In this document: positions 33,670-38,390 of the stretch, in pieces
How positions within the stretch are numbered: the first letter of the stretch is position 1
How the letters are laid out: each line of letters starts with the position of its first letter
Assembly (NCBI RefSeq): GCF_988242995.1
Contig: NZ_OZ547043.1
Direction: 5' to 3' (one strand)
Length of the DNA: 64,000 nt
The notes under the pieces: generated by a model
Database searches by the model: none
The model's input: only the letters and a program-made list of their open reading frames with translations
What the model was told of the DNA's origin: nothing
Made by a program: the position numbers and the translations under genes

Positions 33670-34131
33670 CTTAAAAACCTATCCCGTCTAACACAAAGTG
33701 CATACATTACCACGACAAAACGGGGGATTCGCGGCCTTCTGACAGAATGTTGCAATCTTCTGCTGACAAAGCGTGCAACGTACTGGTGAAGAAAGTGCGT
33801 TATCTCAATGATGTGCGCAAGATCACAAAAATGATGAACGGGAAGCTAATTTATTCCTGGCTTGTATGGCCATGCAGTGAGTTTTTTTCTCTTAATTATA
33901 AGTTAACGAAGAAAATATATTTCATAACTTTTATTTATAATAAAGGTTGATAATTAAAAGCCTATATTTTGTGTGGGTAATTATTAAAATAAGAGAAACG
34001 TTTCGCTGGTAATCAAACAAAAAATATTTGCGCAAAGTATTTCCTTTGTCATAAAAATAATACTTCCAGACACTATGAAGTTGTGAAACATAATGTTAAC
34101 TTCTCCATACTTTGGATAAGGAAATACAGAC

Positions 34132-34392
34132 ATGAAAAATCTCATTGCTGAGTTGTTATTTAAGCTTGCCCAAAAAGAAGAAGAGTCGAAAGAACTGTGC
34201 GCGCAGGTAGAAGCTTTGGAGATTATCGTCACTGCAATGCTTCGCAATATGGCGCAAAATGACCAACAAAGGTTGATTGATCAGGTAGAGGGGGCGCTGT
34301 ACGAGGTAAAGCCCGATGCCAGCATTCCTGACGACGATACGGAGCTGCTGCGCAATTATGTAAAGAAGTTATTGAAGCATCCTCGTCAGTAA
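34132..34392 (+). CDS. iraP: anti-adaptor protein IraP (RpoS stabiliser)
   Basis: 86-aa [25 protein letters not shown]... Confidence 0.9.
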
Positions 34393-34412
34393 AAAGTTAA
34401 TCTTTTCAACAG

Positions 34413-34430
34413 CTGTCATAAAGCTGTCAC
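34413..34430 (+). promoter_or_regulatory. Pho box (PhoB binding site) of phoA promoter
   Basis: ctgtcataaagctgtcac, two 7-bp direct repeats CTGTCA(T/C) spaced 11 bp, ~60 nt upstream of the phoA GTG. Confidence 0.85.
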
Positions 34431-34492
34431 GGCCCAGACTTATAGTCGCTTTGTTTTTATTTTTTAATGTATTTGTACATGGAGAAAATAAA

Positions 34493-35908
34493 GTGAAACA
34501 AAGCACTATTGCACTGGCACTCTTACCGTTACTGTTTACCCCTGTGACAAAAGCCCGGACACCAGAAATGCCTGTTCTGGAAAACCGGGCTGCTCAGGGA
34601 GATATTACTGCACCCGGCGGTGCTCGCCGCTTAACGGGTGATCAGACCGCCGCTCTGCGTGATTCTCTTAGCGATAAACCTGCCAAAAATATTATTTTGT
34701 TGATTGGCGATGGGATGGGGGACTCGGAAATTACTGCTGCACGCAATTATGCCGAAGGTGCGGGCGGCTTTTTTAAAGGTATCGATGCATTACCGCTTAC
34801 CGGGCAATACACTCACTATGCGCTGAATAAAAAAACCGGCAAACCGGACTACGTCACCGACTCGGCTGCATCAGCAACCGCTTGGTCAACTGGTGTCAAA
34901 ACCTATAACGGCGCGCTGGGCGTCGATATTCACGAAAAAGATCACCCAACGATTCTGGAAATGGCAAAAGCCGCAGGTCTGGCGACCGGTAACGTTTCTA
35001 CCGCAGAGTTGCAGGATGCTACGCCCGCTGCGCTGGTGTCGCATGTGACCTCGCGCAAATGCTACGGTCCGAGCGTGACCAGTGAAAAATGTACGGGTAA
35101 CACGCTAGAAAAAGGCGGGAAAGGATCGATTACCGAACAGCTGCTTAACGCTCGTGCCGATGTTACGCTTGGCGGCGGCGCAAAAACCTTTGCTGAAACG
35201 GCAACCGCCGGTGAATGGCAGGGAAAAACGCTGCGTGAACAGGCACAGGCGCGTGGTTATCAGTTGGTGAGTGATGCTGCCTCGCTAAATGCGGTGACGG
35301 AAGCGAACCAGCAAAAACCCCTGCTAGGACTGTTTGCTGACGGCAATATGCCAGTGCGCTGGCTAGGACCGAAAGCAACGTACCACGGCAATATCGACAA
35401 GCCCGCAGTTACCTGTACGCCTAATCCGCAACGTAATGACAGCGTACCGACCCTGGCGCAGATGACCGACAAAGCCATTGAATTGTTGAGTAAAAATGAG
35501 AAAGGCTTTTTCCTGCAAGTTGAAGGTGCATCAATCGATAAACAGGATCACGCTGCGAATCCTTGTGGGCAAATTGGCGAGACGGTCGATCTCGACGAAG
35601 CCGTACAACGGGCGTTGGAATTCGCTAAAAAGGATGGCAACACGCTGGTCATAGTCACCGCTGATCACGCCCACGCCAGCCAGATTGTCGCGCCGGACAC
35701 CAAAGCGCCGGGCCTCACCCAGGCGCTAAATACAAAAGATGGCGCAGTGATGGTGATGAGTTACGGGAACTCCGAAGAGGATTCACAAGAACATACCGGC
35801 AGTCAGTTGCGTATTGCAGCGTATGGCCCACATGCTGCCAATGTCGTTGGACTGACCGACCAGACCGATCTCTTCTACACCATGAAAGCCGCTCTGGGGC
35901 TGAAATAA
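34493..35908 (+). CDS. phoA: alkaline phosphatase
   Basis: ORF 34451..35908; GTG at 34493 after ggagaaaataaa gives [21 protein letters not shown] signal peptide, 471 aa; active-site DSAASATAW. Confidence 0.93.
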
Positions 35909-36026
35909 AACCGCGCCCGGCGGTGAATTTTCGCTGTCGGGTGGTTTTTTTGCTGTTAGCAACCAGACTTAATGGCAGATCACGGGCGCACACGCTCATG
36001 GTTAAAACATGAAGAGGGATGGTGCT

Positions 36027-36347
36027 ATGAAAATAACATTACTGGTTACCTTGCTTTTCGGTCTGGTTTTTTTAACCACCGTCGGCGCTGCCGAGAGAAC
36101 CTTAACCCCGCAACAACAGCGTATGACCTCCTGTAATCAGCAGGCGACGGCGCATGCGTTGAAAGGGGATGCTCGTAAGACCTACATGAGTGATTGCCTG
36201 AAGAACAGCAAGTCTGCGCCTGGTGAAAAAAGTTTGACGCCACAGCAGCAAAAGATGCGCGAATGTAATAATCAAGCAACGCAACAATCTCTGAAAGGTG
36301 ATGATCGTAATAAGTTTATGAGCGCCTGCCTCAAGAAAGCCGCCTGA
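36027..36347 (+). CDS. psiF: phosphate-starvation-inducible protein PsiF
   Basis: ORF 36009..36347; ATG at 36027 gives MKITLLVTLLFGLVFLTTVGAA; two tandem ~40-aa repeats. Confidence 0.88.
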   Translation: MKITLLVTLLFGLVFLTTVGAAERTLTPQQQRMTSCNQQATAHALKGDARKTYMSDCLKNSKSAPGEKSLTPQQQKMRECNNQATQQSLKGDDRNKFMSACLKKAA

Positions 36348-36448
36348 TACCTGATAGTGCTAACGGGTGAGCTACGAAAATGGCTCACCCGAAATTTCAT
36401 ACTTCTGCCTTTAGCCCCGTCTCTATAATTTGGGAAAATTGTTTCTGA

Positions 36449-37564
36449 ATGTTCCCAAAAATAATGAATGATGAAAATTTTTTCAAAAAAGCGGCGGCGC
36501 ATGGGGAGGAACCTCCTTTAACTCCTCAAAACGAACATCAGCGATCCGGGCTGCGCTTCGCCCGTCGCGTCAGACTACCCCGCGCGGTTGGCCTGGCTGG
36601 CATGTTCTTACCGATTGCTTCAACGCTGGTTTCGCACCCGCCGCCGGGCTGGTGGTGGCTGGTGTTGGTTGGCTGGGCGTTCGTCTGGCCGCATTTAGCC
36701 TGGCAGATAGCGAGCAGGGCCGTCGATCCGCTTAGCCGGGAAATTTACAACTTAAAAACCGATGCAGTATTAGCGGGAATGTGGGTAGGCGTAATGGGCG
36801 TAAACGTGCTGCCTTCCACCGCGATGTTGATGATTATGTGTCTGAATTTGATGGGGGCAGGCGGCCCCCGTCTGTTTGTCGCGGGTCTGGTGTTGATGGT
36901 GGTTTCCTGCCTTGTCACCCTCGAACTGACGGGCATCACCGTGTCGTTCAATAGTGCGCCGCTGGAATGGTGGCTCTCCCTTCCCATTATCGTCATTTAT
37001 CCTCTGCTGTTTGGCTGGGTCAGCTACCAGACGGCGACTAAACTGGCGGAACATAAACGCAGGTTGCAGGTCATGAGTACCCGCGACGGTATGACGGGCG
37101 TGTATAACCGACGTCATTGGGAAACTATGTTACGCAATGAATTTGATAACTGTCGGCGGCATAACCGCGATGCGACATTACTGATTATCGATATCGACCA
37201 TTTCAAGAGCATCAACGATACCTGGGGCCATGATGTGGGCGATGAAGCGATTGTGGCGCTTACCCGACAGTTACAAATAACCCTGCGCGGTAGCGATGTG
37301 ATTGGTCGGTTTGGCGGCGATGAGTTTGCGGTAATCATGTCCGGTACGCCAGCTGAGAGCGCCATTACCGCCATGTTACGGGTGCATGAAGGGCTAAATA
37401 CATTACGTCTGCCGAATACGCCACAGGTAACTTTACGGATTAGTGTGGGGGTTGCGCCGCTGAACCCACAAATGAGTCACTATCGTGAGTGGTTGAAATC
37501 GGCAGATTTGGCGCTTTACAAAGCAAAGAAAGCCGGACGTAACCGCACCGAAGTGGCGGCCTGA
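36449..37564 (+). CDS. dgcC: diguanylate cyclase (GGDEF), membrane MASE2 domain
   Basis: 371-aa ORF; N-terminal TM region then GGDEF domain with RFGGDEF motif (also known as adrA/yaiC). Confidence 0.93.
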   Translation: MFPKIMNDENFFKKAAAHGEEPPLTPQNEHQRSGLRFARRVRLPRAVGLAGMFLPIASTLVSHPPPGWWWLVLVGWAFVWPHLAWQIASRAVDPLSREIYNLKTDAVLAGMWVGVMGVNVLPSTAMLMIMCLNLMGAGGPRLFVAGLVLMVVSCLVTLELTGITVSFNSAPLEWWLSLPIIVIYPLLFGWVSYQTATKLAEHKRRLQVMSTRDGMTGVYNRRHWETMLRNEFDNCRRHNRDATLLIIDIDHFKSINDTWGHDVGDEAIVALTRQLQITLRGSDVIGRFGGDEFAVIMSGTPAESAITAMLRVHEGLNTLRLPNTPQVTLRISVGVAPLNPQMSHYREWLKSADLALYKAKKAGRNRTEVAA

Positions 37565-37580
37565 CGTCCGGCAAAAGTCA

Positions 37581-38390
37581 TCAGGATTTACTGAGTTTTT
37601 CTGATTTTTCCATACACTTCGTCATCGCTTCGATCACTGCGGCACGGAAGCCTTTCTCTTCCAGTACGCGTACCGCCTCAATGGTGGTGCCTCCCGGTGA
37701 GCAGACCATATCTTTCAGTGCCCCCGGATGTTCTCCCGTTTCCAGCACCATTTTTGCGGAACCCATTACCGCCTGAGCGGCAAATTTATACGCCTGGGCG
37801 CGTGGCATCCCGCCCAGCACGGCAGCGTCGGCCATCGCTTCGATAAACATAAAGACGTAGGCTGGCGAAGAACCGCTCACACCGACCACCGGGTGGATCA
37901 TCGGCTCGGCAATTACTTCCGCTTCGCCAAAGCAGCGGAAAATATTCAGCACATCAGCGGTATCTTCTGGGGTTACCAGCGCGTTTGGCGTTACGGAGGT
38001 CATCCCGGCATTAACCAGTGCGGGAGTGTTCGGCATGGCGCGGATAATTTTCCGGTCATGGCCCAGTGCACGGGCAAGCTGGTCGAGCGTGACACCTGCT
38101 GCAATAGAAACGACCAGAGAGTCTTTATTCAGGCTGGAGGTGATTTCGCTAAGCACTTTAATCATGATGCCTGGTTTAACGGCGGCAAAAATGATGTCGG
38201 CGATTTGCGCCACTTCTTGCGCCGATTCTGCGGCGTTGATGCCGAACTGGTCATGCAGGGCGGCGACTTTATCCGGGGAGGGGGTATATACCCAGATTTG
38301 CCCTGGAAGCACCTGACCGCTGGCAATCAGACCGCCGAGAATGGCTTTTCCCATATTGCCGCAGCCAATAAAACCGATTTTCTTTTCCAT
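37581..38390 (-). CDS. proC: pyrroline-5-carboxylate reductase
   Basis: ORF 37581..38498; ATG at 38390 gives [21 protein letters not shown]..., 269 aa. Confidence 0.93.

What the first reader, a model, noticed from the sequence alone, without database searches (positions are those of the whole stretch)
36027..36347. PsiF consists of two tandem ~40-residue repeats
After the signal peptide the protein reads ERTLTPQQQRMTSCNQQATAHALKGDARKTYMSDCLKNSK followed by EKSLTPQQQKMRECNNQATQQSLKGDDRNKFMSACLKKAA. The two Cys-containing modules are clearly related, indicating an internal duplication of a small periplasmic domain.
Basis: seen in the sequence. Interest (0 to 1): 0.15.

Follow-up and report, generated by a model that had tools for sequence, protein, structure and literature searches.

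The report
PsiF: two disulfide-stapled helical hairpin repeats
The small E. coli periplasmic protein PsiF really is built from two copies of one ~40-residue module, but this is an ordinary feature already catalogued as the Pfam "PsiF repeat"; only the protein's function remains unknown.

Summary
Window 36027-36347 (+) is E. coli psiF (106 aa), lying between phoA and adrA. Residues 23-62 and 67-106 are 23/40 identical (BLASTP E=3e-17; z=22 against composition-preserving shuffles; profile-profile probability 99.9%).

It is not new. Pfam PF07769 "PsiF_repeat" matches twice, and NCBIfam NF008560 (PsiF equivalog) matches over the full length.

What the module is:
- AlphaFold2 predicts a helix-turn-helix hairpin for each repeat, joined by a low-confidence linker (pTM 0.37). 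This looks like beads on a string, not a packed two-fold symmetric domain.
- 332 of 334 units from diverse homologues keep both cysteines, mostly as C-x20-C.
- Recalculating published top-down mass spectrometry of E. coli K-12 PsiF fits an 85-aa mature form (A22-A106) with two intra-repeat disulfides (-8.9 ppm).

The family is large (about 2,100 clusters at 50% identity) and carries 1 to 5 repeats per protein. Its units are strongly cationic (median +3). It was seen in Proteobacteria, Nitrospirota and Myxococcota.

phoA linkage was found only in Enterobacteriaceae. Pho-box-like sites are not enriched upstream of homologues elsewhere, so the name "phosphate starvation-inducible" probably describes enteric operon context and not the family.

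Function is unknown. The best guess is a multivalent binder of anionic envelope or periplasmic ligands. Interest is low.

The parts
36027..36347 (+). psiF coding sequence (106 codons plus TGA stop)
   Evidence: ORF list and translation. NCBIfam NF008560 PsiF equivalog, 233 bits against a cut-off of 165, positions 1-106/106. Megablast finds the locus in 5425 of 5426 complete E. coli genomes, annotated psiF.
36014..36019 (+). Shine-Dalgarno-like GAGGGA, 7 nt before the ATG at 36027
   Evidence: Read directly from the sequence. It supports the 106-aa start over the in-frame ATG at 36009. CpxQ sRNA is reported to pair near the psiF SD (bioRxiv 10.1101/2025.09.11.675593); that pairing was not tested here.
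36027..36089 (+). Sec-type signal peptide, residues 1-21 (MKITLLVTLLFGLVFLTTVGA), with cleavage between A21 and A22
   Evidence: The sequence shows a K2 n-region, a hydrophobic core and V-G-A before the cut, with no lipobox Cys. The published intact mass of K-12 PsiF fits a mature form starting at A22.
36093..36212 (+). PsiF repeat 1, residues 23-62 (predicted helices 28-42 and 47-60; Cys36 codon 36132-36134, Cys57 codon 36195-36197)
   Evidence: Pfam PF07769 stretch 27-59. AF2 secondary structure. Cysteine conservation.
36213..36224 (+). Linker SAPG, residues 63-66
   Evidence: pLDDT is below 50 at residues 64-66 or 64-68 in both AF2 models. Homologous linkers are 0-35 residues long and rich in A/K/G/P.
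36225..36344 (+). PsiF repeat 2, residues 67-106 (predicted helices 72-86 and 91-104; Cys80 codon 36264-36266, Cys101 codon 36327-36329)
   Evidence: Second PF07769 stretch. AF2. BLASTP against repeat 1, E=3e-17.
36364..36391 (+). Stem-loop just after the psiF stop codon, the probable operon terminator
   Evidence: RNA fold of -20.1 kcal/mol, z=-5.1 against shuffles. The T-run after it is weak, so terminator function is inferred.
35914..35953 (+). Strong hairpin plus T-run in the phoA-psiF intergenic region
   Evidence: Terminator-like hit with a 13-pair stem followed by GTTTTTTTGC. Fold energy -25.1 kcal/mol, z=-4.1. It would attenuate read-through from phoA into psiF; this is inferred.
34493..35908 (+). 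phoA (alkaline phosphatase), the upstream gene of the phoA-psiF operon
   Evidence: Pfam Alk_phosphatase, 3.4e-135. GTG start read from the sequence. RefSeq annotation under the match.
34413..34430 (+). Pho box CTGTCATAAAGCTGTCAC upstream of phoA
   Evidence: Read from the sequence. It matches 13 of 14 positions of the CTGTCAT-N4-CTGTCAT consensus. PhoB ChIP-seq binding and PhoB-dependent expression of phoA-psiF are reported in PMC10294691.

Best explanation
psiF encodes a Sec-exported periplasmic protein whose mature form has 85 residues and is strongly basic (pI about 9.7). It consists of two copies of the known PsiF repeat (Pfam PF07769).

Each copy is an autonomous helix-turn-helix hairpin. 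One intra-repeat disulfide (Cys36-Cys57 and Cys80-Cys101) staples the two helices together. A short flexible linker joins the copies like beads on a string.

The repeat arose by internal duplication of a module that occurs in 1 to 5 copies in homologues from other bacteria.

In E. coli and other Enterobacteriaceae the gene is expressed by read-through from the PhoB-activated phoA promoter, across an intergenic hairpin.

The function below is inferred, not shown. The cationic hairpins probably act as a multivalent binder of an anionic ligand in the periplasm or envelope, such as phosphate-bearing polyanions or lipid and LPS head groups. Repeat number would tune avidity.

Confidence in the anatomy is high. 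Confidence in the function is only about 0.2-0.25.
For: Repeat and family:
- Pfam PF07769 matches twice (1.9e-33), and the NCBIfam PsiF equivalog matches.

Hairpin fold:
- Two AF2 runs give helices 28-42/47-60 and 72-86/91-104 with a low-confidence linker and pTM 0.36-0.37.

Disulfides:
- 332/334 units keep both Cys. Spacing is C-x20-C in 293 units and x18 in 35.
- The published observed mass of 9443.4898 Da (PMC9196203 ESI) equals A22-A106 with two disulfides (9443.5741 Da, -8.9 ppm).
- The four published fragments fit b50 and y35, a complementary pair at the T|P bond that opens repeat 2, and b83. Each half carries -2 Da, so the disulfides are intra-repeat.

Modularity:
- Among the best 150 representatives, copy number is 2 (119), 3 (29), 4 (1) and 5 (1).
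- Single-repeat genes occur in genomes.
- Linkers are 0-35 aa.

Cationic character:
- Median net charge is +3 per unit, and 98% of units are positive.

Regulation:
- A Pho box lies upstream of phoA.
- phoA-psiF is PhoB-dependent (PMC10294691).
- CpxQ represses PsiF protein levels (bioRxiv 10.1101/2025.09.11.675593).
Against: - No ligand, partner or phenotype was tested here, and none was found in the literature searches.
- No gene neighbour is conserved across major taxa, so context gives no functional hint.
- The conserved face of each helix carries hydrophobic residues (M11, F31, M32, L36 of the unit). These could mediate self-association or inter-repeat packing that a monomer AF2 run would not show confidently.
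- I could not inspect model coordinates or PAE.
- The mass-spectrometry reading is my reinterpretation of numbers that the authors assigned differently (86 aa, with an unexplained -75 Da). It rests on one intact mass and four fragments.
Confidence: 0.8

Rival explanations
1. The two repeats pack against each other into a single pseudo-two-fold-symmetric four-helix bundle, so the functional unit is the pair and not the single hairpin.
For: Each hairpin has a conserved, partly hydrophobic face wider than two helices need (helical-wheel reading of the conservation table). Two copies is the commonest architecture, 119 of the best 150 representatives.
Against: AF2 pTM is 0.36-0.37 and the linker has pLDDT below 50, with and without an alignment. 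Linker length ranges from 0 to 35 residues. Proteins with 1, 3 and 5 repeats exist. Published b50/y35 fragments separate the halves cleanly, so there is no inter-repeat disulfide.
Confidence: 0.15
2. The conserved Met-x-x-Cys pairs are a redox-active or metal-binding site with reduced thiols, for example a periplasmic Cu/Zn or oxidant scavenger, and not structural disulfides.
For: M11/C14 and M32/C35 are 93-100% conserved. psiF and phoA appear in the hit list of an ASKA overexpression screen for H2O2 resistance (PMC8228696).
Against: The intact mass and fragments fit -4 Da in total and -2 Da per half, meaning oxidised cysteines in cells on agar. Met and Cys lie on the helix-helix interface face of each helix by helical periodicity. 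There is no conserved His or acidic cluster. The screen is a list entry only.
Confidence: 0.05
3. PsiF is a dedicated helper of alkaline phosphatase or of phosphate scavenging, such as a PhoA folding or retention factor or an organophosphate or polyphosphate capture protein. On this view the family as a whole belongs to the Pho response.
For: psiF lies in the operon with phoA under a Pho box in this window. PhoB-dependent expression is published (PMC10294691). The cationic surface suits phosphate-bearing ligands.
Against: phoA is adjacent in only 8 of 120 loci, all Enterobacteriaceae. No neighbour is shared across taxa. Pho-box-like sites occur upstream of 1.9% of homologues against 1.4% of control windows. 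A Herbaspirillum psiF homologue was reported as higher in high phosphate (PMC8222739).
Confidence: 0.15
4. The similarity between the two halves is a by-product of biased composition (Q/K/T-rich, helical) and not true duplication.
For: The protein is Q- and K-rich.
Against: Shuffles that keep composition never approach the observed score (z=22, 0 of 20,000). BLASTP with compositional adjustment gives E=3e-17. The same motif with fixed Cys spacing recurs in about 2,100 protein clusters.
Confidence: 0

Closest known systems
Pfam PF07769 PsiF_repeat / NCBIfam NF008560 phosphate starvation-inducible protein PsiF (E. coli P0AFM4)
   Same: It is this family. Both repeats match the Pfam model, and the whole protein matches the PsiF equivalog end to end. 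The same locus is annotated psiF in 5425 of 5426 complete E. coli genomes.
   Different: Nothing material. This window has His43 where K-12 has Gln43 (against the sequence in PMC9196203).
Disulfide-stapled helical hairpins: CHCH domains (twin CX9C; Cox17, Mia40 substrates) and plant alpha-hairpinins (CX3C...CX3C)
   Same: They share the general design of a short helix-turn-helix held together by disulfide bonding between the two helices, in an oxidising compartment. This resemblance is from my own knowledge plus the AF2 topology.
CpxP/Spy/ZraP periplasmic LTXXQ-motif helical proteins
   Same: Each PsiF repeat opens with L-T-P-Q-Q, which fits LTXXQ. The protein is small, helical and periplasmic, and its translation is repressed by CpxQ, the sRNA derived from the cpxP 3'UTR.
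   Different: No LTXXQ-family hit appeared among the 25 most frequent families when 95 family members were scanned against Pfam at E<=5, and none for PsiF itself at E<=0.01. CpxP and Spy lack the paired cysteines. The motif is most simply a helix N-cap. Rejected as a relative.

Membership tests
Pfam PF07769 PsiF_repeat | Score above the gathering threshold, with the repeat present in tandem | tested here: met
   114.4 bits against a cut-off of 21, E=1.9e-33, two matched stretches. The best stretch covers residues 27-59 and model positions 2-34 of 34.
Pfam PF07769 PsiF_repeat | Conserved unit signature QQ-x-[KR]-M-x-x-C-N-x-x-A ... L-x-G-[DE]-x-R-K-x-F-M-x-x-C-L, with two Cys 20 residues apart | tested here: met
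   Both window repeats carry it. The column frequencies come from 334 units of diverse homologues.
NCBIfam NF008560 PsiF (equivalog) | Full-length match above the curated cut-off | tested here: met
   233 bits against a cut-off of 165, positions 1-106 of 106.
E. coli Pho regulon (phoA-psiF operon) | Pho box at the operon promoter and co-orientation with phoA | tested here: met
   CTGTCATAAAGCTGTCAC at 34413-34430 matches 13 of 14 positions. phoA ends 118 nt upstream of psiF on the same strand.
E. coli Pho regulon (phoA-psiF operon) | PhoB-dependent transcription of psiF under phosphate limitation | not testable with these tools
   Taken from the literature only: ChIP-seq plus RNA-seq in PMC10294691. 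A strong hairpin with a T-run lies between phoA and psiF, so read-through efficiency is unknown.
Exported periplasmic protein (Sec/SPase I substrate) | N-terminal signal peptide with an A-x-A-type site, no lipobox, and a mature N-terminus observed | tested here: met
   Sequence features. The published intact mass fits a mature form starting at A22. No dedicated signal-peptide predictor was available.
CpxP/Spy LTXXQ family (PF07813) | Detectable profile similarity to the LTXXQ family model | tested here: not met
   No hit for PsiF at E<=0.01. The family is not among the 25 most frequent Pfam hits for 95 members at E<=5.
CHCH / alpha-hairpinin disulfide hairpins | Two disulfides per hairpin from paired CX9C or CX3C motifs | tested here: not met
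   One Cys per helix with C-x20-C spacing. No structural match in the PDB searches.

The most novel reading that the evidence does not exclude
The PsiF repeat could be an uncharacterised class of periplasmic, polycationic, single-disulfide helical-hairpin module that binds phosphate-bearing polyanions (polyphosphate, nucleic-acid fragments, or LPS and phospholipid head groups). Avidity would be set by copy number (1-5). Enterobacteria would have recruited it into the phoA operon to hold substrates near alkaline phosphatase. A secondary novelty is that the family-wide annotation 'phosphate starvation-inducible' may be wrong outside Enterobacteriaceae.
Probability: 0.15. Interest if true: 0.4.

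Novelty: already known. Interest (0 to 1): 0.1.

Why it matters
As an observation it matters little. The internal repeat of PsiF has been a curated Pfam family for years, and the gene is in essentially every E. coli genome.

The residual value lies in three points.

1. PsiF is a universally conserved Pho-regulon protein of E. coli that still has no function and no solved structure.
2. The module anatomy assembled here gives a concrete starting point for biochemistry: an autonomous cationic hairpin with one disulfide, present in 1 to 5 copies.
3. The name 'phosphate starvation-inducible' is being propagated to homologues in Pseudomonas, Burkholderiales, Nitrospirota and other groups. In those genomes neither phoA linkage nor Pho-box-like sites are seen.

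Tried and rejected
1. PDB relatives by sequence. phmmer with PsiF and hmmsearch with the repeat profile found nothing below E=0.4.
3. A CpxP/Spy LTXXQ relationship, a lead from memory, got no Pfam support.
4. Rfam scan of 34000-38000 gave no RNA family at E<=1.
5. Context from representative proteins. The three look-ups landed on metagenomic contigs of 1-2 kb and were uninformative.
6. The search for related loci with the 95-sequence alignment failed because no stretch of 7-10 columns was conserved enough. I replaced it with a hand-built degenerate DNA pattern over one repeat, which returned 120 loci.
7. Conserved neighbours. Clustering ORFs within 4 kb found no family shared across major taxa. 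The largest cluster was ORFs overlapping psiF itself.
8. Pho-box scan upstream of homologues showed no enrichment.
9. Dating the duplication from repeat-1 versus repeat-2 orthology failed. Same-position identity between taxa barely exceeds different-position identity (differences of 0.04 or less). Within-protein identity (0.58-0.73) is as high or higher. The result is inconclusive between recurrent duplication, homogenisation and saturation.
10. One literature hit with 40 occurrences of 'psiF' (PMC12239559) was a false positive for 'PsifA', the sifA promoter.

Full report
**Locus.** The window region 34.1-38.5 kb reads iraP-like ORF, phoA, psiF, adrA (MASE2+GGDEF), then proC on the minus strand. 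A 1-kb query centred on the finding matches 5425 of 5426 complete E. coli genomes. The features under the match are annotated phoA, psiF and adrA. The ORF at 36027-36347 (+) encodes 106 residues and matches the NCBIfam PsiF equivalog NF008560 end to end (233 bits, cut-off 165). A GAGGGA Shine-Dalgarno sequence lies 7 nt before the ATG at 36027. This favours the 106-aa form over the in-frame ATG at 36009, which some database records use (112-aa and 124-aa entries).

**Checking the observation.** The two quoted 40-residue segments are present exactly, at residues 23-62 and 67-106.
- They share 23/40 identities.
- The local BLOSUM62 score is 126, against 22.7 +/- 4.7 in 20,000 shuffles that keep composition (z=22, none reached it).
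- BLASTP with compositional adjustment gives E=3e-17.
- Profiles of repeat 1 and repeat 2 from 119 diverse two-repeat homologues align with 99.9% probability.

Biased composition therefore does not explain the similarity. At the DNA level the repeats are 74/120 identical, with only 15/40 third positions matching. There has been no recent duplication or gene conversion in this lineage.

**It is already known.** Pfam-A contains PF07769 'PsiF_repeat', a 34-position model. It matches PsiF in two stretches with E=1.9e-33.

**Anatomy of the module.** I built a profile of 48 enterobacterial repeat units (A1) and searched 1.84 billion representative proteins with it.
- It found 2,102 clusters at E<=1e-3 and 852 at E<=1e-10.
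- Among the best 150, 119 have two repeats, 29 have three, one has four and one has five.
- Single-repeat genes also exist in genomes. One example is a 61-aa protein made of a signal peptide plus one unit (L024). Another locus, L063, has a one-repeat and a two-repeat paralogue side by side.

Across 334 units the near-invariant positions are Q7, Q8, [KR]10, M11, C14, N15, A18, L23, G25, D26, R28, K29, F31, M32, S33, C35 and L36. Both cysteines are present in 332 of 334 units. The spacing is C-x20-C in 293 units and x18 in 35. By helical periodicity the conserved residues fall on one face of each predicted helix, as expected for a helix-helix interface (my reading). Units are strongly basic, with median net charge +3 and 98% positive. 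Mature PsiF has pI 9.7. Linkers between units run from 0 to 35 residues and are rich in Ala, Lys, Gly and Pro.

**Structure prediction.** AF2 was run without an alignment (mean pLDDT 73.5, pTM 0.36) and with a 95-sequence alignment (75.6, 0.37). Both give the same picture:
- helices 28-42 and 47-60 in repeat 1;
- helices 72-86 and 91-104 in repeat 2;
- block pLDDT of 84-94 inside the hairpins;
- pLDDT below 50 in the linker.

**Disulfides: experimental support recovered from the literature.** A native top-down MS study of E. coli K-12 colonies lists PsiF with an observed monoisotopic mass of 9443.4898 Da (PMC9196203). The authors' theoretical mass is 9518.64 Da, which leaves 75.15 Da unexplained.
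- My calculation shows 9518.64 Da is the reduced 86-residue form starting at A21.
- The 85-residue form starting at A22 with two disulfides is 9443.5741 Da, which is -8.9 ppm from the observed value.
- Without any ad hoc mass shift, the four listed fragments fit b50 (-3.3 ppm), y35 (-6.8 and -15.8 ppm) and b83 (-7.4 ppm) of that form.
- b50 and y35 are complementary products of cleavage at the Thr-Pro bond that opens repeat 2. Each carries -2 Da.

So each half holds its own disulfide and the halves are not cross-linked. This is my reinterpretation of published numbers, not the authors' statement. It agrees with the conservation pattern and with the predicted topology, which places one Cys in each helix of a hairpin.

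**Regulation and context.** A Pho box (CTGTCATAAAGCTGTCAC, 34413-34430) precedes phoA. PhoB binding and PhoB-dependent expression of phoA-psiF are published (PMC10294691). Between phoA and psiF lies a strong hairpin followed by a T-run (35914-35953; -25.1 kcal/mol, z=-4.1). This should attenuate read-through. A second hairpin follows the psiF stop codon (36364-36391). A 2025 preprint reports that the Cpx-dependent sRNA CpxQ pairs near the psiF Shine-Dalgarno sequence and lowers PsiF-3xFLAG levels.

To see whether the Pho link is general, I scanned one genome per species with a degenerate DNA pattern for one repeat and obtained 120 loci. They came from Pseudomonas, Enterobacterales, Xanthomonadales, many Betaproteobacteria, a few Alphaproteobacteria, Nitrospirota and one Myxococcales genome.
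- phoA is adjacent in only eight loci, all Enterobacteriaceae.
- No neighbour family is shared across major groups. Lineage-specific neighbours are unrelated housekeeping or regulatory genes: ArgRS, an aminotransferase, LysR, ABC and MFS proteins.
- Pho-box-like sites (at least 11 of 14 positions) occur upstream of 1.9% of homologues, against 1.4% of control windows.
- A Herbaspirillum study reports its psiF as higher in high phosphate (PMC8222739).

The label 'phosphate starvation-inducible' therefore most likely reflects the enterobacterial operon arrangement and not a property of the family.

**Evolution of the repeat.** Within-protein repeat-1 to repeat-2 identity (0.58-0.73 by taxon) equals or exceeds identity between proteins. 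Same-position identity between taxa barely exceeds different-position identity, by 0.04 or less. With about 17 of 33 core positions nearly fixed, the data cannot separate one ancient duplication with saturation from recurrent duplication and loss or from homogenisation. The variable copy number shows that units have been gained or lost repeatedly.

**Mechanism.**
- Shown or well supported: export and cleavage at A21|A22; two autonomous helical hairpins; one intra-repeat disulfide each; a polycationic surface; enterobacterial co-expression with phoA.
- Inferred: the hairpins bind an anionic ligand multivalently. I rate this at about 0.2-0.25.
- Rivals: inter-repeat packing into a four-helix bundle (0.15), a dedicated PhoA or phosphate-scavenging helper role (0.15, overlapping with the main guess), and a redox or metal site (0.05).
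- Rejected: a CpxP/Spy-type LTXXQ relationship, suggested by the LTPQQ start of each unit, found no profile support.

**Verdict.** Interest is low. The only open question is the function of a conserved protein of unknown role.

Noticed in passing
window 35914-35953 (+): A strong terminator-like hairpin (13-pair stem, -25.1 kcal/mol, then GTTTTTTTGC) sits inside the phoA-psiF operon, between the phoA stop codon and the psiF start. It implies that psiF is transcribed at a fraction of the phoA level, by read-through.
   Followed up: partly
window 36009 vs 36027 (+): An in-frame ATG 18 nt upstream gives a 112-aa ORF. Database records carry 106-, 112- and 124-aa versions of the same protein. The SD position and the NCBIfam model support the 106-aa form.
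   Followed up: partly
PMC9196203 supplementary file 1 (E. coli K-12 PsiF, UniProt P0AFM4): The published top-down MS assignment of PsiF carries an unexplained -75.15 Da. It is resolved exactly by signal-peptide cleavage one residue later (A21|A22) plus two disulfides (-8.9 ppm). The listed fragments then fit b50, y35 and b83 without any mass shift.
   Followed up: yes
L063:3283-3525 and L063:3630-4028 (+), betaproteobacterial MAG: Two PsiF-repeat genes lie side by side, one with a single repeat (80 aa) and one with two repeats (132 aa). Both have similar signal peptides, which suggests a local gene duplication with a different copy number in each paralogue.
   Followed up: no
L069:6372-6671 (-), Candidatus Pantoea persica: This psiF homologue keeps repeat 1 but its second repeat is replaced by unrelated sequence (…CLKREQNGQHDAAAGKNETLQ). 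This looks like decay or truncation in a symbiont genome.
   Followed up: no
L006-L125 (120 loci): Homologues annotated 'phosphate starvation-inducible protein PsiF' in Pseudomonas, Stenotrophomonas, Burkholderiales, Nitrospirota and other groups have neither phoA nearby nor Pho-box-like sites upstream. The name appears to have been propagated by homology alone.
   Followed up: yes
window 35700-36700: This stretch is at least 99% identical to only 261 of 5427 matching E. coli records, and 99.9% identical to one dog isolate. The other 5166 records are 95-99% identical. The window therefore comes from a less common allele or lineage at this locus. PsiF has His43 where K-12 has Gln43.
   Followed up: no
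window 34132-34392 (+): The 86-aa ORF just upstream of phoA ([30 protein letters not shown]…) looks like iraP (yaiB), the phosphate-starvation anti-adaptor for RssB. This identification is from memory only and was not tested with a family search.
   Followed up: no
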